A stretch of 63,528 nucleotides of DNA, the filler included, from Pirum gemmata (Eukaryota): the NCBI GenBank assembly GCA_002812295.1. It is 18 parts of 18 records of this genome, joined end to end, with 100 filler letters (N's around TTAATTAATTAA, not from the genome) between each part and the next. Parts side by side here need not be neighbours in the genome. Positions count along the whole stretch, not along the records: positions 54,095 to 57,168 come from PDIN01003570.1; positions 57,269 to 60,336 come from PDIN01003571.1; 16 more parts are not named here. One strand, given 5' to 3'. The notes under the pieces were generated by a model, which was given only the letters and a program-made list of their open reading frames with translations, was not told the origin of the DNA and ran no database searches. How positions within the stretch are numbered: position 1 is the first letter of the stretch; each line of letters opens with the position of its first letter. This document shows, in pieces, positions 1,062 to 63,188 of the stretch. The position numbers were made by a program, and so were the translations under genes.

Positions 1062-2212
1062 TAGTCTACGATATCTAGCTAGATATTAGTATCGGATACT
1101 AGCTAGGTATCGGATAAGTATCGGATATCAACGTCATACAATACTTACCAGACTTAGATCTACCATTAACCATAGTATTACCATCATCATTCTTGAATAC
1201 CCTCCCTTTTAATGATATTCAATGTTGCGAATAAATACAGTTAAATACCATTAATTATGAGTATGATACTACGATTTTAATTTCATTATGGTTGTACCTA
1301 ATGGTTGTACTGATAGCAAATCCACTAGGTTCTACTAGTAGTGGGTTTTTAGTGTTAATCCCCACCTTTTTTTCAGCCAATTAGATTATGTATATACTGT
1401 TATTTTCCTAGTATTTTCCTGTATTTTATGGTAAAAAGGTAGGAATTAGAAGTGTTCACAACTATTTTGCAGCCTAATAACCCAACAAATGAAAATAAGA
1501 AAAGACATTTGCTCTTAATTAAACAGCTGCGAAAAGCATTAAATTCCTACCATTACCAGTGATTAACCACCACGTTCGATTTGTATTTTGAAGTTGTTTC
1601 TTAGTAAATTCCTATGTTCGAAAGTCGATCAATTAAAATGCCAGAAAGCAAAAATTGGATGCTAACAAGTGTGCAAAAAACAAGGACAAATCTGCTGCAA
1701 AAAATATTGTACTAAATTAATAAAAATACAAGCCATTTTATTCAAACTGGTATGNAAGCCATTTTATTCAAACTGGTATGTTTTTTATATATTTATTAAC
1801 TTTAAAAAGGTCCATTTCAAACTAGTCCATTTCAAATCAAAGACACGGGCAGCACCATTGCGGAACATTGGGAATATAATTCCCAGATATAGATTTAAGG
1901 GTACCGTCTTTCATTTTATCCTCATATTTCCAGGTGTTCCTGTACGAGAGGAACCAAGACGGGTATACAATATTCATCTCTATCTGTCGGAATTTTATTA
2001 TAATACATATCTTTATATATTCCTAATGTATAATAATAATAATAATAATAATAATAAACAAAAAAATAATAAATAAAAAAATAATAAATAAAAAAATAAA
2101 AAATAATAATAATAAAAAATAAAAAATAAAAAATAATAAATAATAATAAATAATAATAAATAATACTAATAAATAATAGATAATAAATAATAATAGATAA
2201 TAAATAATAATA

Positions 2213-2245
<33 letters not shown>

Positions 2246-2979
2246 CTATCAATCGGTGCGCAATTACTGTAAACCGGCGGGTCAAATACCAAAACGGTAG
2301 CTTTTCTACGTTCAAACTCTCCAATAATGGCACAAACTAACGAAAGGGCTGCGATAATTAAACCCGAAACAATTTTTTGCGGAGCCGTAACTTCGGAGCC
2401 TTTAAGTTTTTCAATAGCAGGAAAAATAATAATTTTAAAAATTGGAATAAAAATCAAAATAGCAATACCATCTGCAATACTAAAAAACGAACCGTTTAAT
2501 TGATTATTAGGATTACTTCCAAGTCTAATATCAGACTGACATGCCTAAATTATATAATATGTAGATTAGAATCAATTATAATAGTGGTGGTGGTTGTAAT
2601 GTCGAAGTAGTAGTAGAGGTGGTGGTGGTATGGAAGTAGTGGTGGTGGATGTGTGGAAGTGGTAATAGTAGTGGTGGTGGTGGTGGTGTGGAATGGTGTG
2701 GAAGTGTTAGTAGTAGTAGTAGTAGTGGCGGTGGTGGTGGTAATAGAACTAGTAATAGTGAAAGTAATAGTAATAGTAGTAGTAGTAGTAGTAGTAATAA
2801 TAGTAATAATAGTAATAATAGTAGTAGTAGTAGTAATAATAGTAATTGTAGTAGTGGCAGTAGTAATAGTTGTAGTAGTAGTAATAATAGTAGTAATAAT
2901 AGTAATAGTAATAGTGGTAGTAGTAGTAATAGCAGTAGTATTAATAATAATTAATCTTACCTGACTTTGATAAGGACCG
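2246..2979 (-). CDS. POT/PTR (NRT1/PTR) proton-dependent oligopeptide transporter, partial; exons 2979-2961 and 2544-2246
   Basis: Spliced translation GPYQSQ|ACQSDIRLG...FSIADGIAILIFIPIFKIIIFPAIEKLKGSEVTAPQKIVSGLIIAALSLVCAIIGEFERR matches the POT C-terminal-half helices; canonical GT-AG sites, phase-compatible. Confidence 0.8.
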
Positions 2980-10059: not shown

Positions 10060-10989
10060 ATGATGTTTTCCGTCGCCACCAGCGTTCTTGTTTTAGCTTC
10101 TGTAGCTTCTGGTTATAATATCAATACTCATTATGAAAAGAAATGGGCTTGTGAAAAGAATTTTCATTACAAAGGTTCTCATTCCAGTAACGGTTACACT
10201 GATAAGTTTTGCTCTAAACAATACTGTCTGAATAAAGACCCTAAGAATTACCCTGCCCAAGGTTGTTTTTACGCTGGTTTAACTGATTATGGTAAAAAGA
10301 ACTACAAACAATGTGAATGTTGGGAAGTAGGAAAGAAACACCATGTTATCAAACCAAAGGAGAGAAAATACAAATCGTATAAAAAGTACAAAACATATCA
10401 AAACTCTGTTGACTACAAACCACACAAACCTGAGCCTAAAGGTGATGACTATGAATGGAAATGTTATTCCAACGACGATTACCGCGGTAGCCATTCCACT
10501 TTGGGTTATGATGATAACTTTTGCACCAACTCTTATTGCTTAAACGGAGAAGGATTTGGTCCTGCCATGAACGGAGCGCCAGGCTGTTGGTATAAAGGTA
10601 TCACCAAACACAAGAAACACTTGAAACAGTGTCTATGTTATAAAGAAGATGGGTACGATGTCGATGAACCTGAGTACAAGGAACCTGAACCCGAGTACAA
10701 GGAACCTGAACCTGAGTACAAGGAACCTGAACCTGATTACGAGGAACCTGAACCTGAGTACAAGGAACCTGAACCTGATTACGAGGAACCTGAACCTGAG
10801 TACAAGGAACCTGAACCTGATTATGAGGAACCTGAACCTGAATATAAGGAACCTGAACCAAAGATTTACAAACATAAACCTACGACTTACAAACATGAAC
10901 CTAAAACTTACAAACACGAGCCTAAACCTGACACTTACGCGCCTGAATATGATGATGATGATGATGGTGAATACGAACTTGACTATTAA
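10060..10989 (+). CDS. Secreted Tyr/Lys-rich protein with two 6-Cys modules and EPEPEYK/EPEPDYE heptad repeats (probable wall/extracellular structural protein)
   Basis: Intact 309-aa ORF with hydrophobic signal peptide (MMFSVATSVLVLASVASG), internally duplicated Cys module, and GC content higher than the flanks. Confidence 0.9.
   Translation: MMFSVATSVLVLASVASGYNINTHYEKKWACEKNFHYKGSHSSNGYTDKFCSKQYCLNKDPKNYPAQGCFYAGLTDYGKKNYKQCECWEVGKKHHVIKPKERKYKSYKKYKTYQNSVDYKPHKPEPKGDDYEWKCYSNDDYRGSHSTLGYDDNFCTNSYCLNGEGFGPAMNGAPGCWYKGITKHKKHLKQCLCYKEDGYDVDEPEYKEPEPEYKEPEPEYKEPEPDYEEPEPEYKEPEPDYEEPEPEYKEPEPDYEEPEPEYKEPEPKIYKHKPTTYKHEPKTYKHEPKPDTYAPEYDDDDDGEYELDY
10666..10860 (+). repeat. 21-bp coding tandem repeat (about 9 units, EPEPEYK/EPEPDYE)
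   Basis: GAACCTGAACCTGAGTACAAG and GAACCTGAACCTGATTACGAG units. Confidence 0.95.
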
Positions 10990-49765: not shown

Positions 49766-51118
49766 GGTTTGGCCTAGCTTCCCATAAAATAGTGCCATAA
49801 ATATCAATTTACCCCCCGAAAGTGTTCCCTAGCCCATTTCGAGTTTTTTATAAATAGACCCCACGGGGGTCTATAGGTTTGATTTGCATATTTTTTTACC
49901 GATCTAAAAAAAAAAATTCAAATAAACACACGTTTTAGCCAATGGAGGGTTGTCTTTTGAGCTTGAACTAACTATTGGACTTTCGATCATTATAGCCATT
50001 TTTTAATTCGAAAATTTTTAAAAATATTTTTAAAAAAATAAACGAAATAATGATTGAATAGATTTATAGGGTTTCGGACCATGTTTGTTTCTACAATTTG
50101 CATATTTTGCTTTTTTCTCTATTTTTCCTTTTTTAGCCTTTTTTCCTCTCTAAATGTATCTTGGTTGGTGTCCCACTATCACACGAATGACAGTCGAATG
50201 ACCCTCTTATCTCGAAAAAATTTTAAAAAAAGTATATCTATTTTCAAACCCTGCAAATTAGCCTTTTTTTAATAGCGCTGTTAAAAAATAATAAGTAAAT
50301 TATTTTTTTTAAAAAAAGTATATATATTTTCAAACCCTGAAAATAAGCCCTTTTTTTTTTTTCGTTCCCTTTCTAGAAAATAGCAGTAAAATAGCGCTGT
50401 TAAAAAATAATAAGTAAATAATACAATTATAGTAGAGCATCATAGTTTGACATAGAACTACATAGTGTGCATGTCATTATCTATTAATTATTATTAATTA
50501 TATAATTATAATTTAAAATTTGTTGCTTGTAAACAACGCGGGTTATATTAATCAGATAATATAAGAGTATATAAGGTTAGAAGCTGAATTAGGATTAAGA
50601 ATTTCTAGGATTATGATTAGGGTTAGGATTGAATTATTAAGTAGGGTTATAATTAGTTAGGATAAAGTCATTCATTATGTTACAAAATTATCATACTGTA
50701 AAATGGTTAGGGTGAGGGGTCACTACGTTGCAGTGGCCATTTAATATAATATTGTTATAATATATATACTGTAGTCTACTATTGATAATAATACAATATC
50801 CAATTATATTATGCATTTTATATATTCTACATAATATATAATTATNNNNNNNNNNNNNNNNNNNNNNNNNNNNNNNNNNNNNNNNNNNNTTAATTAATTA
50901 ANNNNNNNNNNNNNNNNNNNNNNNNNNNNNNNNNNNNNNNNNNNNTTTATTTATTTATTTAATCCCCTTGCCTACCCCCTCCTCCTCTATCGTTGTTTGG
51001 TTTTTTCTCGGTTTTATTTTATTTCGATGTTGACATTTACCACCATTTGAAAATGTTTTAACTTTTATTATTATTATTATTATTATTATATCAATTTATA
51101 TATTTATAACTATAAAAG

Positions 51119-53172
51119 ACATTGCATCTTCAGGAGCTTATCAAGAAAACCTAAAGAAACAGCAACAGTTACTGCTTGACAACGTGGCTGCGATCAACCA
51201 CTACCTGGGAAAAAGTGGAAGAGAACATTATGATGAAATTGAAACAGTTAAACAACAAGTTAAAGAATTAGAAAACAAACAAGATTTAATTACAGCAGAG
51301 CATGGTGATTTCTACACGGAAGGAATTCGAGGCAAATTTAGTAAATTCAAAGTTAGAAAATATGACAGCTATTGGAATTGGTCTCGTCAAGATTTTTATA
51401 AGTTTAATAATAAATGCATGAGCTTGATGATGGCTGAGAAAACCAGCGATGGTAAAAATGATGGCGATAATTATCTTCTTTTAAAGTTGGATTGGAATAG
51501 AATTGTCAATCGCTTATCGATCCATGTGAAGGATAGTATTTTGTGTATGTTGGATTCTGAATTAGGTAAATGGGTATGTGATAATATTATTTGTGATGAT
51601 ATTGCTGATGTTCAAGAGAAGTTAATAAACTCTTTTGCTCAGGGTTGTGATTCGGTTTACAAGAAAAAAATTGCTCCACTTCGACCTAAAACTGACATAA
51701 CCGATACTGGAAAGTTGGTGTATTCTGAGGTTATCATTGTTGGTGTCATTGCTCTTGTTGTTTCAATAGCAAATTATTAATTTTATTTTTGTTTTGTTTT
51801 GTTTTTTTGTGTAATTTTTATCAGTGTTTCTGTTCTTGTTCTTGTTTTTATTAATATTACTATCGATATCAACATGGTTGCTAAATAATACCGAATCTAT
51901 CAAAAATTATTATAAATTTATATATAACCACACCACACAATGATTACTATTACACAACCACTACTACCTCCGCGACCACCATAACCAACATAACCACTAT
52001 AACCACTATATTCACAACCACAATCACAATCACAATCACAACCACAACCACAACCACAACCACAACCACAACCACAGCCACAACCACAATCACAACCATA
52101 TCACAACCACAACCATAATCACAACCATATCACAACCACATCATCATCAGCAGCAGCAACCTCTATATCCGCAACCTCTATATCCGCAACAACTACAACC
52201 GCACTTAATAGGTTACAAACATTTTCTTTTATTTATTACCAACCTTTTTGATCATAGGTTGAACGTACTATCAACTACGTAACCGAAATCCAAAGCGTAA
52301 TGGAGTTATGTGCTAAAGAAAAGGACTCTGAGTCACAATTATTTTCAGCATCCTCAGAGGAAGTATTGCGAAAAACTTTGGAAGAGATGTTACAGCTACA
52401 TAATCACGAACAACATGAACAACGCCAAAATGTTGTAGAAAAAATTGATATGTTTATGAAAATGTGCAAAAGTAACAAAAGAAGTGGCATTGGTGATGAT
52501 AATGAAATACCTTTAGTCAATTTGAAAAGACAGGTAAATGTTTATTTCACATGTCGTTATGTTTGTCCCCCCCTTCTCAAATCTCTTATTTTCTTCCAAG
52601 TTTTTTGTTTCTTGTTTTTTCTATTTTTTAGGGGTTTTTTATTATTATTATTTGGATTGGTTTGGTTTAGTTTAGTTTGCTTGTATGTGTGAGTGTTGTG
52701 TGGGTTAATAAATTAAAAGCAAAAGTTTTTTTATTAAAAGTTTTTTATCTATTTATTTCCTTTATTGGTTGTATCCATTTAATTTCCTTCTGATATATAT
52801 ATATATATATACGTGTATTGTTTTATTTTTTAACAACAACTTATAGAATGGTAGTAAATGGGTTTATGATAAAGATATGACCCAGAATCTTTTTAATTCT
52901 ATTAGTAATATCCAAGAAAATGGAATATCTTTGAAAGATAAAATGGTACTCATAACCGGATGTGGTCGTGGATCCATTGGAGAAGCGATTTTGGACGCCC
53001 TTCTTGCTGCAGGTTTTTTTTTTGGTGGTGTTGTTGTTGTTGTTTTAGTTTTAGTTTCGTTTAATTTCTTTTAGTTTAGTTTAGTTTCTTTTAGTTTGGT
53101 TTAGTTTCCTTTAGTTTCGTTTTGCTTCGCGATAGTGATAATGTAATGCTATTAATAATGATAATGATAAGG

Positions 53173-53204
<32 letters not shown>

Positions 53205-53655
53205 GTAGGTGCTCAAGTTGTAGTAACTTCTAGCTCGTTTACAAGTAGCTCTTTGGCAACTTTCCGCAACAAATATGAAACTTTAGGAGGAAAAGGCAGC
53301 TCTTTGACCGTGGTTCCCTTCAACCAAGGCTCCATTCAAGACTGCAAAAATCTTGTTGATTACATTTATGATGACCTAAAAATGGGTAAGCATTTGTATA
53401 CTTTTGTTACTTGGTTTTAGCTCAATTTTATTTTGTTTGGGGTTAGGTTGGGATTGGGATTGGGATTGGGATTGGGATTGAGATTGGGATTGTAAGTTTT
53501 TCTTTTTTAACAATTTTAATACTTACAACAGAACATTATTAACACTCTATTGTATTGTTTTCTTTTTGTTCATTTGGTAGATTTGGACTATATAATTCCT
53601 TTTGCTGCTATTTCTGAAAATGGACGGATGATTAATGGAGTTGATGACCGTTCAG
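51119..53655 (+). CDS. FAS2: Fungal-type fatty acid synthase, alpha-chain helical and ketoreductase region, partial; exons about 51119-51729, 52258-52533, 52847-53012, 53209-53385, 53581-53655
   Basis: AEHGDFYTEGI...YDSYWNWSRQD, DKMVLITGCGRGSIG..G|AQVVVTSS, VVPFNQGS, D|LDYIIPFAAISENG are collinear with yeast Fas2; all introns GT-AG and in phase. Confidence 0.93.
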
Positions 53656-54094
53656 GTAAAACTTAAGTGTTATATTTAACTGTAACAATCAATCCGTAGA
53701 ACCGCCTAATCATTTGTCACACACATACACTAATTTATCTCTTTTCAGAGATTCACTAAATTGACTGTCTTAACTCTTAACGTTACCATTTCCATTACAT
53801 TATCATTACTATTACCATTACCATTGTCATTGCTATTGCTAATACTATTACCATTACGCTGTTACCATTACCATTACCATTACCATTACCATTACCATTA
53901 CCATTACTATTACTATTACTATTACCATTGCTACTATTACTATTACTATTACTATTACTATTTCTATTACTATTACTGTTACTATTACTATTACNNNNNN
54001 NNNNNNNNNNNNNNNNNNNNNNNNNNNNNNNNNNNNNNTTAATTAATTAANNNNNNNNNNNNNNNNNNNNNNNNNNNNNNNNNNNNNNNNNNNN

Positions 54095-54617
54095 AGTTAT
54101 TTTTACTATTTTTACTATTTTTACTATTTTTACTATTTTTACTATTTTTACTATTTTTACTATTTTTACTACTATTCTTACTACTATTCTTACTATTATT
54201 GTTACTATTCTTACTATTCTTACTATTGTTACTATTTTTATTCTTACTAATATGTTTATTTGTAACTTGTAATTTTTTATTTATAACCTTAATATTTCTA
54301 TCGGTTAATTTAATAGAATCTGATAATATTAATGACAGTTCCCCTAAGTCTTTCATATTTTGAGTTTCTATGTTTTTTATTTCATTTTTTAAATCATCAA
54401 ACTTGTAATAAGATGATACAAATAGATATATGATGGCCACTATAAGCAATATAATCGGTATCCAAATTAGAAAATTCGAGGCGACATGTCCAGGTTGTCC
54501 GGTAGACTGTGTAGACGGTGTAGACGGTGTAGACTGTGTAGACTGTGTAGACTGTGTGTGTGTAGACTTTGTAGACTGTGTAAAATTTTCGGGTATAAAG
54601 GAGGAAGTTTCATCCAT
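54095..54617 (-). CDS. Hypothetical viral-type membrane protein (STQ repeat, one TM helix, coiled coil, SKN-repeat tail; 3' truncated)
   Basis: ATG-initiated ORF with TM segment FLIWIPIILLIVAIIYLFV; runs off the scaffold end. Confidence 0.75.
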
Positions 54618-54698
54618 ATTTTTTTAAAAACAACCTTTGTTTTTAAATTAAATGATAATATAAATAATAATATAAAAATTAAAAATTAAAAATCAAAA
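54618..54698. promoter_or_regulatory. Probable bidirectional AT-rich viral promoter
   Basis: 81 bp between divergent ATGs, with tandem AAAATTAA/AAAAT motifs. Confidence 0.45.
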
Positions 54699-55748
54699 AT
54701 GAAACTTAATGAACGACAAAAGAATCATCTTATTAAGATGTGCGAGATCAGGCAATATAAAAATATAGATACGAACCCCGTCTTTGAAAATATTGCACCA
54801 GAGTTTCAGAGTATGGCCAACCTAGTAGAACTTCACTGTGACCATATTATTGTAATTTATACACAACATTACAAAAATAACATTGATTTTATTAAACATT
54901 TGCTTAAATTTGTCAAGTGTTTATCCAATATTAAGCATGTGATTATTATCCATAAAAACAACATTACAGCCAGTGTACGCAAAATTTCAAAGCAATCCAA
55001 CGAATTAGTCATTGAATTATTTAAAATCAACAAATTTGGCTTTTGTCCGTTGGATCACAAACTCGTACCAAAACATACACGAATTAGCAAAGATAGTGAG
55101 GAGTATAAAGAAATTTTCAACTTCGGCATTGACAAGTTACCTTTGTTATACAAATCCGATACCATAGTCCGTTATTATAACTATAAAGTAGGCGATGTAA
55201 TACGTATTGAAAGGAAAGATGGATTAGTAGCTTATCGAAAAGTGACCAATACCGTATCATCTACTATTGGGTTAAATTCGGTACCGGTAAAAAACTATTT
55301 ATCCAAGGACCCATTACTGCAAGAAAAAAACTTGGTTAATATTTTATTTGATTCTATTAGTCTACCTCCATCGCAAAAACAAAAGTTTACTGCCCATATT
55401 AACCGACAATATGATGATGATGATGATGATGATGATGTTGATATGGTATCTCATAAAAACAAACTTGCCTTTGAAATTTTGGGTCTATGTTGCTCATTAA
55501 AAAGTCTACAATTGGTTGATGAAAAGTTAACCCAAAATCCGACTTTGATACATGAATCGTTTGCCAAACAGCTTGATGATGAAGACCAATTCTTTCTTAA
55601 ACCACCCGAAGTCGTTGAAGGGTTGTATACTTGTCATAAATGTAAAAATTCATTAACAATTAGTTCAAGTAAACAAACTAGAAGTGCCGATGAACCTTCT
55701 ACCGTGTTTATCAAATGTGTTACCTGTAAAAATTCATGGATTGAATAA
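54699..55748 (+). CDS. RNA polymerase subunit RPB5 fused to a TFIIS-type transcript cleavage factor
   Basis: About aa 1-183 is RPB5 (HKLVPKH...KLPLLYKSDTIVRYY...GDVIRIERK...YRKV). The C-terminus is a TFIIS zinc ribbon, EGLYTCHKC...QTRSADEPSTVFIKCVTC...W. No stop or gap between them. Confidence 0.9.
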   Translation: MKLNERQKNHLIKMCEIRQYKNIDTNPVFENIAPEFQSMANLVELHCDHIIVIYTQHYKNNIDFIKHLLKFVKCLSNIKHVIIIHKNNITASVRKISKQSNELVIELFKINKFGFCPLDHKLVPKHTRISKDSEEYKEIFNFGIDKLPLLYKSDTIVRYYNYKVGDVIRIERKDGLVAYRKVTNTVSSTIGLNSVPVKNYLSKDPLLQEKNLVNILFDSISLPPSQKQKFTAHINRQYDDDDDDDDVDMVSHKNKLAFEILGLCCSLKSLQLVDEKLTQNPTLIHESFAKQLDDEDQFFLKPPEVVEGLYTCHKCKNSLTISSSKQTRSADEPSTVFIKCVTCKNSWIE

Positions 55749-55757
55749 TTTTGTTGT

Positions 55758-56174
55758 TTAAGGGGTTTGTGTTGATTGTGTTGATTGTGTTGATTGTGTT
55801 GATTGTGTTGATTGTGTTGATTGTGTTGATTGTGTTGATTGTGTTGATTGTGTTGATTGTGCCGATACCGGAGCGTATACCGGAGCCGATACCGGAGCCG
55901 ATAACGGTGAAGAAGTCATCATATCATTTTGGAAGACATGGCTTTGTCGATGTTGTGACTTTATTTGTTGTTTTATAGATTCCATACTGGGATGTATGTA
56001 ATTATTTATATATTGTACTGTTTTTTCAATATTCTCCGTATTGTATTGAATTTTAGGAACGTTATCGTTAATATAGGAAACAATAGTTTCTAGGTCTTTC
56101 CTTAACGTTAACAACTCTTGAAATAATTGAATTTGTTTTTCTTCTTTAGAAGGATAATTGTTAAGTTTTAACAT
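55758..56174 (-). CDS. Hypothetical viral-type protein (helical N-terminus, APVS and STQ repeats)
   Basis: 138-aa ORF with AAAAATG start, packed tail-to-tail with the RPB5-TFIIS gene. Confidence 0.7.
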   Translation of the reverse strand: MLKLNNYPSKEEKQIQLFQELLTLRKDLETIVSYINDNVPKIQYNTENIEKTVQYINNYIHPSMESIKQQIKSQHRQSHVFQNDMMTSSPLSAPVSAPVYAPVSAQSTQSTQSTQSTQSTQSTQSTQSTQSTQSTQTP

Positions 56175-56233
56175 TTTTAGTAGTTATTTAAAGTCATTTA
56201 AAGTAATTTTTTAAATAAAGTTTTTTAAATAAA

Positions 56234-57058
56234 TTAATTTAAATTTGATAAATAATTAAAGGGAATATTAAAGACTTTATTAATAATAAACTTGCAATGT
56301 GCATTTATTAGCAGTATTTTATGAATATTAGAAGCCACAATACTAGCAGTATCATAGCTGTTACGGCTTTTGTTTTCGCTCAGATTTTTATAATGCACTG
56401 GATAAAATGATTTAGGCAGACAACGATGCATTTTCGCTAAACAATCCAAGTTTATCCAAACGTAACCATTGACATCGCTATTTTGTAACGTAACTTTTAA
56501 ACTTGTTTCCACGGGGATTACATAATACAAAACACATTTTTGTATTTTTATTTGCTGTATTGAATTACCTAGTAAAGTCTCCTTGGAAATTTTTATTCCA
56601 GTTTCCTCTTCTAATTCTCGTACAGCACAAGAAGGAAAATCTTCCTTAGCCAAGAACGATCCTTTGGGAAACCCCCAAAGGTCACCATGACTTTGGACTA
56701 GTAATACTTGGTTATTATTTTTATTAAACAAAATTACTCCAGCTTTGTTTTTATGTAACGGGTAAATTTTTTTATCATAGTCTCGGGCAGTTAGGCCATC
56801 GTTCCATTTGATACTAGTAAATTTAATAGCGTCCGTGACCCGAAATACACATTGGTTACATGGACATTCATAGTTCAATGGAAAGATAACGTCGGTCAAT
56901 CGATTATATAGCTCATAATTCAAATGTTTATTAAAGGTATGAGTTCTATATTTGTTAACTAACGAACTAGGGGTCGCATCCGAGTCTTGTGATATACTTT
57001 TCGGTGTAGTATGTGTATGTGTTGAGTATAAAATTGATTTTTTGGATATAGAATTCAT
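56234..57058 (-). CDS. Nudix hydrolase (viral mRNA-decapping type likely)
   Basis: WGFPKG-SFLAK-E-DFPSCAV-RELEEETGI is a complete GX5EX7REUXEEXGU Nudix box. First usable ATG at 57058 (ORF track starts at TTG 57085). Confidence 0.9.
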   Translation of the reverse strand: MNSISKKSILYSTHTHTTPKSISQDSDATPSSLVNKYRTHTFNKHLNYELYNRLTDVIFPLNYECPCNQCVFRVTDAIKFTSIKWNDGLTARDYDKKIYPLHKNKAGVILFNKNNNQVLLVQSHGDLWGFPKGSFLAKEDFPSCAVRELEEETGIKISKETLLGNSIQQIKIQKCVLYYVIPVETSLKVTLQNSDVNGYVWINLDCLAKMHRCLPKSFYPVHYKNLSENKSRNSYDTASIVASNIHKILLINAHCKFIINKVFNIPFNYLSNLN

Positions 57059-58429
57059 GATGATTAATATATTTGTGCATTTCAAATCCTATTTATTTAC
57101 TTTCATATTTTTTTCCTCTAAGCTAAAAAATATATATATAAATGTTTGAAATAAAATAATAAAATAATNNNNNNNNNNNNNNNNNNNNNNNNNNNNNNNN
57201 NNNNNNNNNNNNTTAATTAATTAANNNNNNNNNNNNNNNNNNNNNNNNNNNNNNNNNNNNNNNNNNNNTATTATTATTATTTTAAAAATAGTAATAATAC
57301 TATAATAATGGTAATAAGAATATATTAAAATAAGAATAATAGTATAGTAATGATAACAACAATAATAAAATTCTTCAATTTGTTTTTGTCTTAATTATGA
57401 TAACATGATTTACATCAGTGTTGCATTGTCAATTACGTATAATTTAAGTTATTGAGAAATTATTTTATTGATATAATACTTTTTTTGATTGTATATAATA
57501 TATCAAAATACTTTTTTTAAAAAAAAAATTAATTAGGAAATTAATTGAAAAATGATTATGGCACACTGTTACGCACTCGTACGCGTTGTTACCAATCTTG
57601 CTGTTGCTGTTGTTACTGTACTAGTTGCTATTGCTCTTGCTCTTGTTTTTACATTTGTTGTAAAAGTTATCGTTATATCGCTGTGCTGTTTTGTTGTTAT
57701 TATTAATTGATTATGGTGAAGTTGACGTTGGCGTTGGTAGTATAACCACAACCATGTACAGTATTTTAATGACAATTATAATAATGATAATATTATAATA
57801 TAATATAGTTATAATTATACTGTTATATTATAATATATACATTTGTTGTAACAGTTAGTTTATGTATGATAAACAAATAATAATAGAAATAATAATAATA
57901 TGGGTGTAATAATAATAATACTTAATAATAATAATAATAAAATAATACCTACATTCCTCCAAAAAATACTAGTAGTAGCTCTAGTAGTTTTGATTTTGTA
58001 TATACTTTCTGTACATAATATCGATATACATTAAGCTATGATACCATTGAGGTTATAAAATTTAATAATAAGAACCTGAAAAATATGACATAGACCCAGG
58101 TCTACGACTGCAAACTCTACTGCTGCAGCTAATATTAATTATATAATCATAGTACAGGAGTGTACAGGAAGAACACTGGAAAAACTTGTGTTACTATAAA
58201 AGTAAAAAATATAAAAAAAAAGAAAAGAAAAGGAGAATCAGGATTCAGGAGATTCCATACATAAATTCCAACAACTATGGAAGACATGCAATTGGGCAAT
58301 AGAAAATCTGTTCAACTTAGAATATTCCAAATAAAGAACTTTTGAGTCTTGAATTCTAAAAACAACCAAATATAGTAACTTTTTAAAATGAAAAAAATGT
58401 TTTTCCCTAGACTATCTAGGACTATGGTG

Positions 58430-61541: not shown

Positions 61542-63188
61542 ATGAGTTTACAAGTATTTCCCTTTATTATTTGTAGCTATTTCATAGCATACTTGAATTT
61601 ATTTGGGATGTACTCCTATGCCACTTCAAATTCTTTATCCCAATCCTCAACAAACCTTACACCTGATCAACTAATCTCCAAAATGGTAACTAATGGCCCA
61701 ATCAATAACAATTACGATGCTTTTGTAATATACACTCTTGAAGAAATCAATCAAATTTATGCCACAACGTACGCTAACCAACTTATACCCTTACAGCCAT
61801 TTACCATGAATTATAACGTCACTAACGCCACTGACGCCTCGATTCAACCACCTATTTATTGGTACTATTATTCTATTGTAATGAGTTTCACTAATCCAGT
61901 ACTTTCGTTTAACGAAGAAGGTCTGGTTGTTTTGTCTCAAACCATCTCACCTGGAAGTTATTACAATCAAACAACTTGTTATGGACCCCCGCTGATCAAC
62001 ACAACTCAAACTTCAGTGGAAAAAGTTTATTTCAATAACGCCACTTTCACTTTAACCTGCCCATTAGCTAAAATGCAAAGCATAGTTGAAGGAGGACTTA
62101 TAGCTTTAAACTTAACAAACTCTACGCTGGAAATTAACGAACCAAACTTACCTTCACAATTTGCAACAGATTTTGCTGATTACTGGAAGGACGGGAAAGA
62201 TGAAATATATACTTTGGGGAAAATTACAGACGCGGGTAAAGTTTACAATTCACTCGTACCATATGATTTCGACGTTTGCACTATACCAAAACAACTTAAT
62301 GATGAAAATGCTTATGTTGTGATTGTAATCAACACCCAGGCCTCGAACCAAACAGTACAACTAAATGTGAGCTGTTATGAGTTATTCCCTGCATCTTTGT
62401 ATGAAACAATGATTCCACAAGGTTATGGTGTCTCGTTGTATTTATCCACGCGAAATATGGCTTCATTCTTACAAGATACTTTAGCAGATACAGTAAATGT
62501 CAATGAAGTGAAAATAAATGAACAAACTGGGCAAATGTTAAACATGACCGCAAACTCGACTCTGTACAATGTTCAATATATAGATAATTCACAATGTAAA
62601 GTAGACAGCACTTCGACTATGAATGGGGAATATTACAACTGTGGTTATTCATCTAAAAAAACTGTAACAAATGGTGCAAAACCCAGTTTCTTGAAAGATA
62701 ATAGTAAAGAAGGTACACCTTCATATGTGTGGCAGTTACAGGCAGAGCACGATGATGTTGCTTCGTGTGCTCAGTGGGGTAGTAACCCTTTAGCAAACGT
62801 AAAGTGTGGTTGTTGTTATGGCCAAAATGGTCCTCACGACGTATGTGTTAAACCTCAGTATTTTTCAGGTCTTGATTTAGAATTAAATATGAACGCCTTT
62901 GATGCAGATTTGAATATAACTTTGAATTATAATCATACTTATACATCAGCAGTTCAGGCCTGTGATTCTTATTCAGTTACTGCTTCACCTATAAATCGAA
63001 CTGGGGTATTTACTAGTGCTATAACAAATGTAGACCAAGCCTCCCATACCATATCTGAAACCTTATCTGTTTTTCGTCTTTCTAATATTCTCTTTCCTGA
63101 ATGTCATGTAATGAGTTTTAATTATGTAAAACATACTCCAGATTTAGCAATTTTTGGGGAAATGATAAAAGGGGGGTCTGGATGTTGA
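61542..63188 (+). CDS. 548-aa intronless secreted or membrane-anchored protein, possibly P47/TULIP-like, with Cys-rich C-terminal half
   Basis: Intact long ORF with hydrophobic N-terminus and many NxS/T sequons; terminal motifs YDAFVIYTLEEINQIY and FRLSNILFP...PDLAIFG. The ORF is confident; the family is tentative. Confidence 0.85.
   Translation: MSLQVFPFIICSYFIAYLNLFGMYSYATSNSLSQSSTNLTPDQLISKMVTNGPINNNYDAFVIYTLEEINQIYATTYANQLIPLQPFTMNYNVTNATDASIQPPIYWYYYSIVMSFTNPVLSFNEEGLVVLSQTISPGSYYNQTTCYGPPLINTTQTSVEKVYFNNATFTLTCPLAKMQSIVEGGLIALNLTNSTLEINEPNLPSQFATDFADYWKDGKDEIYTLGKITDAGKVYNSLVPYDFDVCTIPKQLNDENAYVVIVINTQASNQTVQLNVSCYELFPASLYETMIPQGYGVSLYLSTRNMASFLQDTLADTVNVNEVKINEQTGQMLNMTANSTLYNVQYIDNSQCKVDSTSTMNGEYYNCGYSSKKTVTNGAKPSFLKDNSKEGTPSYVWQLQAEHDDVASCAQWGSNPLANVKCGCCYGQNGPHDVCVKPQYFSGLDLELNMNAFDADLNITLNYNHTYTSAVQACDSYSVTASPINRTGVFTSAITNVDQASHTISETLSVFRLSNILFPECHVMSFNYVKHTPDLAIFGEMIKGGSGC

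What the first reader, a model, noticed from the sequence alone, without database searches (positions are those of the whole stretch)
54095..57168. Iridovirus-like giant virus scaffold inside a microbial eukaryote assembly
Seen: roughly 90% coding, intronless, tiny intergenic gaps, AAAAATG/AAAAATATG starts, and none of the MITEs, CTAG patches or telomere hexamers seen on most other scaffolds. Established: RPB5, TFIIS and a Nudix decapping enzyme are recurrent NCLDV genes. Inference: the D-F-x-x-x-P-x-E-V-x-E-G lead-in to the TFIIS ribbon and the VQSxGxLWGFPKG Nudix motif recall iridovirus-like (Pimascovirales) homologs. This suggests an undescribed virus, either endogenised or co-sequenced. 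Integration cannot be shown because both ends are linkers.
Basis: partly seen in the sequence, partly recalled or inferred. Interest (0 to 1): 0.78.

Follow-up and report, generated by a model that had tools for sequence, protein, structure and literature searches.

The report
Giant-virus fragment with RPB5-TFIIS fusion
A 3-kb piece of giant-virus DNA, likely integrated in the genome of a microbial eukaryote, encodes an RNA-polymerase subunit joined to its RNA-proofreading factor in one protein, which would give the viral enzyme a built-in proofreader.

Summary
The scaffold 54095-57168 is viral. Four intronless ORFs cover 92% of it. Its RPB5, TFIIS and Nudix domains score about twice as high against giant-virus proteins as against cellular ones, and the best labelled relatives are Pimascovirales family PM_01, not Iridoviridae; the family is unresolved (long branch). 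Three unnamed metagenomic proteins have the same fusion; the RPB5 tree suggests a separate origin (AU p=0.001; TFIIS 0.083; both halves 0.054). Three paper searches found no such fusion. In the one run holding it, its depth about equals that of a host FAS scaffold (426 vs 409), so integration is likely (about 60-65%) but no junction was seen. The CTAG and telomere-hexamer arguments fail. The host clade is untested; an earlier scan note suggests a relative of animals. The scan had not noted this feature elsewhere.

The parts
54095..57168 (.). Whole viral scaffold, 3074 bp, GC 29.6%, bounded by assembly linkers
   Evidence: held whole by run X1 at depth 409-522
54096..54617 (-). ORF A, at least 174 aa, open at the scaffold end: TQS repeat, one strongly hydrophobic stretch (aa 49-67), SKN repeat; likely a single-pass membrane protein, no homologue found
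   Evidence: (no hit over cut-off)
54699..55748 (+). RPB5-TFIIS fusion ORF, 349 aa
54699..55244 (+). RPB5 part (aa 1-182); H120, P124, D154, R172 align with yeast H147, P151, D182, R200; R180 nearly invariant in relatives
   Evidence: roles of the yeast residues from PMC1802627 (passages)
55245..55325 (+). Linker of about 27 aa: no stop, no Met, GC 37% like coding DNA (spacers 7-15%)
   Evidence: crossed by one X1 contig (54125-55401, 1 other letter)
55326..55748 (+). TFIIS part: predicted helical region with a poly-Asp (GAT)n run, then zinc ribbon (C312, C315, C340, C343) with the acidic pair D331-E332
55758..56174 (-). ORF C, 138 aa, TQS repeat tail, no homologue found
56234..57058 (-). Nudix hydrolase, 274 aa, intact Nudix box (aa 133-154), Dcp2-like; longer N-terminus and a 32-aa insert relative to 160-aa relatives; decapping is inferred

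Best explanation
The scaffold is a fragment of a Pimascovirales giant virus, likely integrated in the host genome at about one copy, whose RPB5 and TFIIS are a single protein that would tether the transcript-cleavage factor to the viral RNA polymerase. Shown: viral affinity, one open frame across both domains, kept key residues, depth equal to a host gene. Inferred: the RPB5 C-terminal globe docks on viral RPB1 as in yeast; the linker and helical region let the zinc ribbon reach the funnel; D331-E332 stimulate cleavage of backtracked RNA, so every polymerase carries its own rescue factor, as vaccinia achieves with Rpo30 as a core subunit. The Nudix enzyme likely decaps mRNA. The virus is PM_01-like or a sister lineage. 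The fusion likely arose in the virus, before integration, and probably independently of three other fused proteins.
For: Viral: phmmer bits of the RPB5 half 76/71/60/44 to four labelled PM_01 bins, TFIIS half 57 to PM_01 g118, Nudix 96/88/79 to L001, G001 and PM_01 g91 (labels; G001 capsid 69% identical to a PM_01 capsid) against 39, 32, 31 to cellular structures. Carriers hold a major capsid gene (10 of 14 records, control 0 of 14). Trees put it on the PM_01 side of a 99/98 (TFIIS) and 100/100 (both halves) split. Fusion real: one contig crosses the junction, linker GC is coding-like with no internal Met, 3 other proteins of 340-353 aa carry both domains. Integration: contig depths 416/522/409 against 360/524/358/510/470 on the host FAS scaffold, weighted ratio 1.04; tandem repeats cover 16%, reached by 6 of 128 windows of viral loci but typical of host scaffolds. 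Separate origin: RPB5 half groups with stand-alone P0024 and P0038 (99/95), AU p=0.001.
Against: No host-virus junction: both ends break at repeats. Depth rests on one run, which may be the source of the assembly, and one host scaffold, and the tool warns that contig depth is no copy number. All four frames are free of stops, CpG is not depleted (o/e 0.85-1.32 against 0.49-0.68 in four host coding pieces) and tetranucleotide likeness to the other scaffolds is the lowest of 18, which fits a free virus as well as a recent insert. No capsid, PolB or other hallmark could be sought in the assembly, and none of the other 17 scaffolds matches the viral loci. The window row is a long branch (2.55) with no starred home; one unlabelled outgroup-type RPB5 scores 44.5 bits, above the weakest PM_01. 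A single origin of the fusions is not rejected by the TFIIS half (p=0.083) or both halves (p=0.054). The (GAT)n run at 55402-55449 is not bridged by a listed contig. The full-length model is poor (pLDDT 52), and reach from RPB5 to the funnel was not tested.
Confidence: 0.55

Rival explanations
1. The DNA belongs to a non-integrated virus: a persistent low-copy infection of the sequenced organism, or a virus of a co-cultured organism, assembled alongside the host. The fusion reading is unchanged.
For: No junction; intact frames, no CpG depletion; foreign tetranucleotide profile; in-frame repeats also occur in free PM_01-type loci such as L001 and L002.
Against: Depth within 4-15% of a host gene would be a coincidence for a lytic or bystander virus; the assembly breaks this DNA into short pieces at simple repeats as it does host DNA.
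Confidence: 0.3
2. The virus is a true iridovirus (PM_02/PM_03) or their direct sister.
For: TFIIS fold hits rank an invertebrate iridovirus second (35% identity) and erythrocytic necrosis virus fourth; the Nudix AU test does not reject grouping with lymphocystivirus-like rows (p=0.3).
Against: Nudix scores 45-46 bits to lymphocystivirus-like loci against 79-96 to PM_01-type ones; iridovirus RPB5 fold hits show 16-21% identity against 38-42% for the best metagenomic relatives (different aligners); iridoviruses keep RPB5 and TFIIS as separate genes (PMC8734342, passages).
Confidence: 0.12
3. The fusion is a non-functional accident, such as read-through after loss of a stop in a decaying insert, or a polyprotein that is cut into free RPB5 and TFIIS.
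For: The poly-Asp run and other repeat expansions look like slippage; RPB5 and TFIIS are separate in 8 of 8 PM_01-type records where both were located; the window's RPB5 is closest to stand-alone proteins.
Against: The linker is coding-like and there is no TFIIS start codon between aa 39 and 249; the two genes are adjacent in 0 of those 8 records, so simple read-through has no template; three other viruses keep a fusion of the same length; catalytic residues are intact.
Confidence: 0.15
4. These are cellular host genes (RPB5, TFIIS, DCP2 orthologues).
For: DCP2 is the best solved match of the Nudix profile (59 bits); GC equals the host's.
Against: No Rpb5_N or TFIIS_M Pfam hit; only 39 bits to yeast RPB5; none of the 141 aligned relatives has a strong Rpb5_N match (best E 2.9e-7); no introns, whereas the neighbouring FAS gene has them.
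Confidence: 0.02

Closest known systems
Pimascovirales family PM_01 (PMC8575486; passages and supplementary table 1)
   Same: Short RPB5 (about 170 aa), short TFIIS (about 140 aa) with the F..P.EV.EG lead-in, and the 160-aa Nudix subfamily; best labelled scores for all three domains.
   Different: PM_01 bins keep RPB5 and TFIIS as distant separate genes; the window virus is a long branch, perhaps outside the family; PM_01 is known only from metagenomes, with one host group (Opalozoa) named in a preprint (10.64898/2026.10.11.758280, section 6).
Iridoviridae (ranavirus ADRV 82L RPB5 and 27L TFIIS; PMC8734342, passages)
   Same: Same order; both proteins co-purify with the viral polymerase.
   Different: Separate genes; lower similarity; hosts are animals (recalled).
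Vaccinia Rpo30 and the NCLDV RPB3-11 fusion (PMC10881513, passages); ASFV M1249L D5 (PMC11579359, passages)
   Same: A TFIIS-like module held stably on a viral polymerase; subunit fusions occur in these enzymes.
   Different: Rpo30 is its own polypeptide and M1249L is a large separate factor; none is joined to RPB5.
Pol I A12.2 and Pol III C11 (relation to the TFIIS C-end in PMC1802627, passage; built-in cleavage role recalled)
   Same: Cleavage ribbon covalently part of a core subunit.
   Different: The anchor there is an RPB9-like ribbon, here RPB5.
Giant endogenous viral elements of Amoebidium (PMC11244446, passages and section 19) and Mycodnaviridae in fungi (PMC13533422, abstract and part 1 of Results)
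   Same: Gene-dense, intron-poor giant-virus DNA in a microbial eukaryote assembly.
   Different: Those are Pandoravirales and Mycodnaviridae, tens to hundreds of kb, with integration shown; this is 3 kb of Pimascovirales with integration only inferred from depth.
Unnamed fusion proteins P0030, P0055, P0182
   Same: RPB5 then TFIIS in one chain of 340-353 aa, on contigs of 14, 52 and 66 kb.
   Different: 25-31% identical to the window protein; they form their own clade (99-100 support) that the window protein does not join in any of three trees.

Membership tests
Nucleocytoviricota | Core genes branch or score with viral rather than cellular homologues | tested here: met
   no cellular rows were in the trees, so this rests on scores and domain make-up
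Nucleocytoviricota | Major capsid protein, PolB, A32 ATPase, RPB1/2 in the same genome | not testable with these tools
   no whole genome held; none on this scaffold or elsewhere in the window
Nucleocytoviricota | Dense intronless coding | tested here: met
   92% coding
Pimascovirales | Markers group with the order, apart from Imitervirales and Algavirales | tested here: met
   99/98 and 100/100 splits; top fold hits are pithovirus, marseillevirus and iridovirus proteins (labels); these are auxiliary genes, not the standard concatenated markers
PM_01 | Nested inside the clade of labelled PM_01 genomes | tested here: inconclusive
   best scores are to PM_01 but the row is a long branch with no starred set; a position as sister to all PM_01 rows is not rejected (p=0.45)
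Iridoviridae | Monophyly with iridovirus homologues | tested here: inconclusive
   Nudix only: not grouped, AU p=0.3; no iridovirus RPB5 or TFIIS sequence could be placed in the trees
Giant endogenous viral element | Physical junction with host DNA | tested here: inconclusive
   no joints; contigs end at repeats
Giant endogenous viral element | Depth equal to host single-copy DNA | tested here: met
   426 vs 409, one run and one host scaffold
Giant endogenous viral element | Decay, introns, methylation or silencing | tested here: inconclusive
   frames intact, no introns, raised repeat share; methylation and RNA not testable
TFIIS cleavage factors | Four-Cys zinc ribbon with Asp-Glu hairpin | tested here: met
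   C312, C315, C340, C343, D331-E332
TFIIS cleavage factors | Domain II helix bundle that binds the polymerase | tested here: inconclusive
   helices predicted; no TFIIS_M Pfam hit in the rows shown; yeast TFIIS ties for top at Z 5.5 with rmsd 20.5
RPB5 | RPB1-binding residues H147, P151, D182, R200, R212 | tested here: met
   four aligned directly, the fifth inferred from a nearly invariant R180
Dcp2-like decapping Nudix | Nudix box and best match to Dcp2 | tested here: met
   an Ap4A hydrolase scores 53 against 59 bits, so substrate is not settled
Dcp2-like decapping Nudix | Cap hydrolysis | not testable with these tools
   needs an assay

The most novel reading that the evidence does not exclude
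A deep, uncultured Pimascovirales lineage has integrated into the genome of a single-celled relative of animals, giving this group a new host lineage, and giant viruses have at least twice independently welded TFIIS to RPB5, a third route (after A12.2/C11 and Rpo30) to a polymerase with a built-in cleavage factor.
Probability: 0.2. Interest if true: 0.8.

Novelty: new variant of a known kind. Interest (0 to 1): 0.58.

Why it matters
Hosts of PM_01-like viruses are almost unknown, and the endogenous giant viruses I read about belong to other orders; a Pimascovirales insert in a sequenced microbial eukaryote would give a host that can be tested. The RPB5-TFIIS fusion is a simple natural design for a constitutively proofreading polymerase, testable in existing recombinant systems, and its recurrence would point to selection for backtrack rescue in cytoplasmic transcription. 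Against this, endogenous giant viruses are common and the evidence is a 3-kb fragment.

Tried and rejected
No own genome is held, so no search for capsid, PolB or A32. Word-index search with the whole fusion: 0 of 958 candidates. Loci for the fusion proteins: none in viral contigs; 1 TFIIS-only locus in metagenome contigs (scan covered 35 of 64 parts), so the genomic context of P0030, P0055 and P0182 is unseen. No RNA holder listed. Runs X2 and X3 cover only repeats of the scaffold. Loose ends at 54249, 54365 and 57022 in X1 are short partial matches, not taken as junctions. CTAG and TTAGGG arguments rejected. The 32-aa Nudix insert as an intron: rejected, frame open and no host-type donor site. 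ORFs A and C: no hit in Pfam over cut-off, NCBIfam, the Atlas (ORF A) or 18,810 locus ORFs. Atlas on FAS for host clade: only scores under 0.9 to unrelated families. Rfam: 0 hits. One search is circular (shared row) and unused. L010-L016 were provisionally called iridovirus-like in tree labels; that was not confirmed. Structure search of the TFIIS half against solved chains gave no Z of 8 or more. No complex prediction was sent.
Full report
The window is 18 short scaffolds joined by linkers; the finding is exactly one of them, 54095-57168. Four ATG ORFs cover 92% of it, against 0-53% in the 17 others and at most 11% in 300 shuffles. Spacers are 81, 9 and 59 bp with 7-15% GC. Three of four starts follow an A-run. 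The host DNA beside it carries an intron-containing fungal-type fatty acid synthase (PF18314, E 1.8e-30) that scores only 39-49 bits to ascomycete enzymes. The host clade was not determined; an earlier scan note (e1-9893649) calls it a probable single-celled relative of animals, which I could not test.

Gene content. Pfam places Rpb5_C (aa 118-175) and the TFIIS ribbon (aa 311-347) in one 349-aa ORF, and NUDIX in a 274-aa ORF. ORFs A and C have no homologue.

Viral or cellular. The RPB5 half scores 76, 71, 60 and 44 bits to four PM_01 bins, the TFIIS half 57 to PM_01 g118, and the Nudix 96, 88 and 79 to L001, G001 and PM_01 g91. Solved cellular proteins give 39, 32 and 31 bits. Labels come from supplementary table 1 of PMC8575486: of 18 bin ids looked up, 10 were found exactly, 4 PM_01, 5 Imitervirales and 1 Algavirales, the PM_01 ones being the higher-scoring loci. 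G001 is unlabelled but its capsid is 69% identical to a PM_01 capsid and 25% to an IM_01 one. Ten of 14 carrier records hold a capsid gene, 0 of 14 control genomes. Among 141 aligned relatives none has a strong Rpb5_N hit (26 weak, best E 2.9e-7), so no ordinary eukaryotic RPB5 is among them (inference). Fold searches rank a PM_07 pithovirus first for both halves, with marseilleviruses and iridoviruses next; the full model is poor (pLDDT 52), the TFIIS-half model fair (75).

Which family. TFIIS and joined trees put the window on the PM_01 side (99/98; 100/100), but as a long branch with no starred group, and a place as sister to all PM_01 rows is not rejected (p=0.45). The Nudix tree is unresolved and does not reject grouping with two lymphocystivirus-like loci (p=0.3; L022's record matches LCDV-2 in size and GC; the naming is my inference). 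No cellular rows and no iridovirus RPB5 or TFIIS rows were in the trees, which used subsets of the hits (62, 30, 42, 37 and 15 rows). Verdict: Pimascovirales, PM_01-like, family open.

The fusion. One X1 contig spans 54125-55401 with 1 differing letter and crosses the end of RPB5; the (GAT)n run at 55402-55449 is not bridged by a listed piece. The linker has 37% GC and the protein has no Met between aa 39 and 249. Two of the best 150 hits (of 2414 at E 0.001 or better) cover both halves and a profile search added a third; 3 of the stored proteins carry both domains. In 8 of 8 PM_01-type records where both genes were located they are separate and not adjacent, and no accession is shared between the two top-50 viral fold lists. 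The three other fusions form one clade; the window's RPB5 joins stand-alone P0024 and P0038 (99/95) and monophyly of all four is rejected (p=0.001, LG+G4), but not by the TFIIS half (p=0.083) or both halves under a mixture model (p=0.054). Two origins are likely, not proved. Three full-text searches for such a fusion listed 3, 0, 6 and 1 papers; the four I checked by passage describe none, the rest were seen as listings only, and subscription journals are largely missing.

How it likely works. The yeast RPB5 residues that bind RPB1 (PMC1802627, passages) are kept, as are the four zinc cysteines and the Asp-Glu pair, which PMC11579359 describes as critical for cleavage (passage). The simplest reading is a core subunit that carries its cleavage factor. 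Vaccinia reaches the same end with Rpo30 as a core subunit, and RPB3-11 shows that these polymerases tolerate fusions (PMC10881513, passages); ranavirus RPB5 and TFIIS are separate but co-purify (PMC8734342, passages). Geometry and activity are untested. The Nudix profile matches DCP2 best (59 bits; Ap4A hydrolase 53; ASFV g5R 46), so decapping is likely but not settled.

Integrated or not. Only one run holds the DNA and it may be the source of the assembly. Its unique contigs have depths 416, 522 and 409 on the viral scaffold and 360, 524, 358, 510 and 470 on the FAS scaffold: ratio 1.04 weighted, 1.15 for long contigs. Tandem repeats cover 16%, a level reached by 6 of 128 windows from 24 viral loci, and within the host range of 5-66%. 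Against this, there is no junction, frames are intact, CpG is not depleted and the tetranucleotide profile is the least host-like of 18 scaffolds. I put integration at 60-65%.

Against what is known. PM_01 was described as 64 genomes, all from metagenomes (PMC8575486, passage); a 2026 preprint gives Opalozoa as the first host (section 6; its supplements are closed). The endogenous giant viruses I read about are Pandoravirales in Amoebidium (passages) and Mycodnaviridae in fungi (part of Results). That Amoebidium study found no reliable ViralRecall hit in ten other holozoan genomes and notes that the program missed many inserts (section 19; its table S5 not seen). The GVMAG V2 catalogue lists 22 genomes with high-confidence inserts without giving orders in the section read; its insert tables were not found in the supplements I could search, one being cut and two too large, and may hold a Pimascovirales case. 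The scan's own index had no look-alike by sequence, place or words.

Verdict. A real giant-virus fragment, Pimascovirales, likely endogenous, with an unreported and recurring RPB5-TFIIS fusion: a new variant of a known kind, interest 0.58.

Noticed in passing
window 50946-53994: Intron-containing fragment of a fungal-type fatty acid synthase I (PF18314), only 39-49 bits to ascomycete enzymes; introns are filled with microsatellites. A possible marker for the host clade.
   Followed up: partly
window 61542-63188 (+): 549-aa intronless ORF with a hydrophobic start and a Cys-rich end, no Pfam hit and no match to the viral loci; second most coding-dense scaffold.
   Followed up: no
window 10060-10989 (+): 310-aa ORF with a hydrophobic start, two Cys-rich units and an EPEY-type repeat; no Pfam hit.
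   Followed up: no
window 21733-22335 (-): Weak Tf2-1-like SH3 hit below cut-off (E 0.0018); likely the end of an LTR retrotransposon pol gene.
   Followed up: no
window 2023-2544 (-): Exon of a POT/PTR2 peptide transporter (E 2.7e-8).
   Followed up: no
window 54096-54617 and 55758-56174: ORFs A and C both carry a TQS repeat built from different 9-bp units; tandem repeats inside the ORFs have periods that keep the frame.
   Followed up: partly
P0028, P0054: Viral RPB5 proteins with about 100-130 extra N-terminal residues holding repeated Cys-rich units: another RPB5 fusion type in the same clade.
   Followed up: no
L012 7155-10411: An unlabelled virus with RPB5 two genes from its Nudix gene; 11 related loci at 62-100% identity; family not determined.
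   Followed up: partly
L203 (G011): A capsid ORF of about 772 aa, some 300 residues longer than its PM_01 relatives, aligning in separate pieces; a possible intein or other insert.
   Followed up: no
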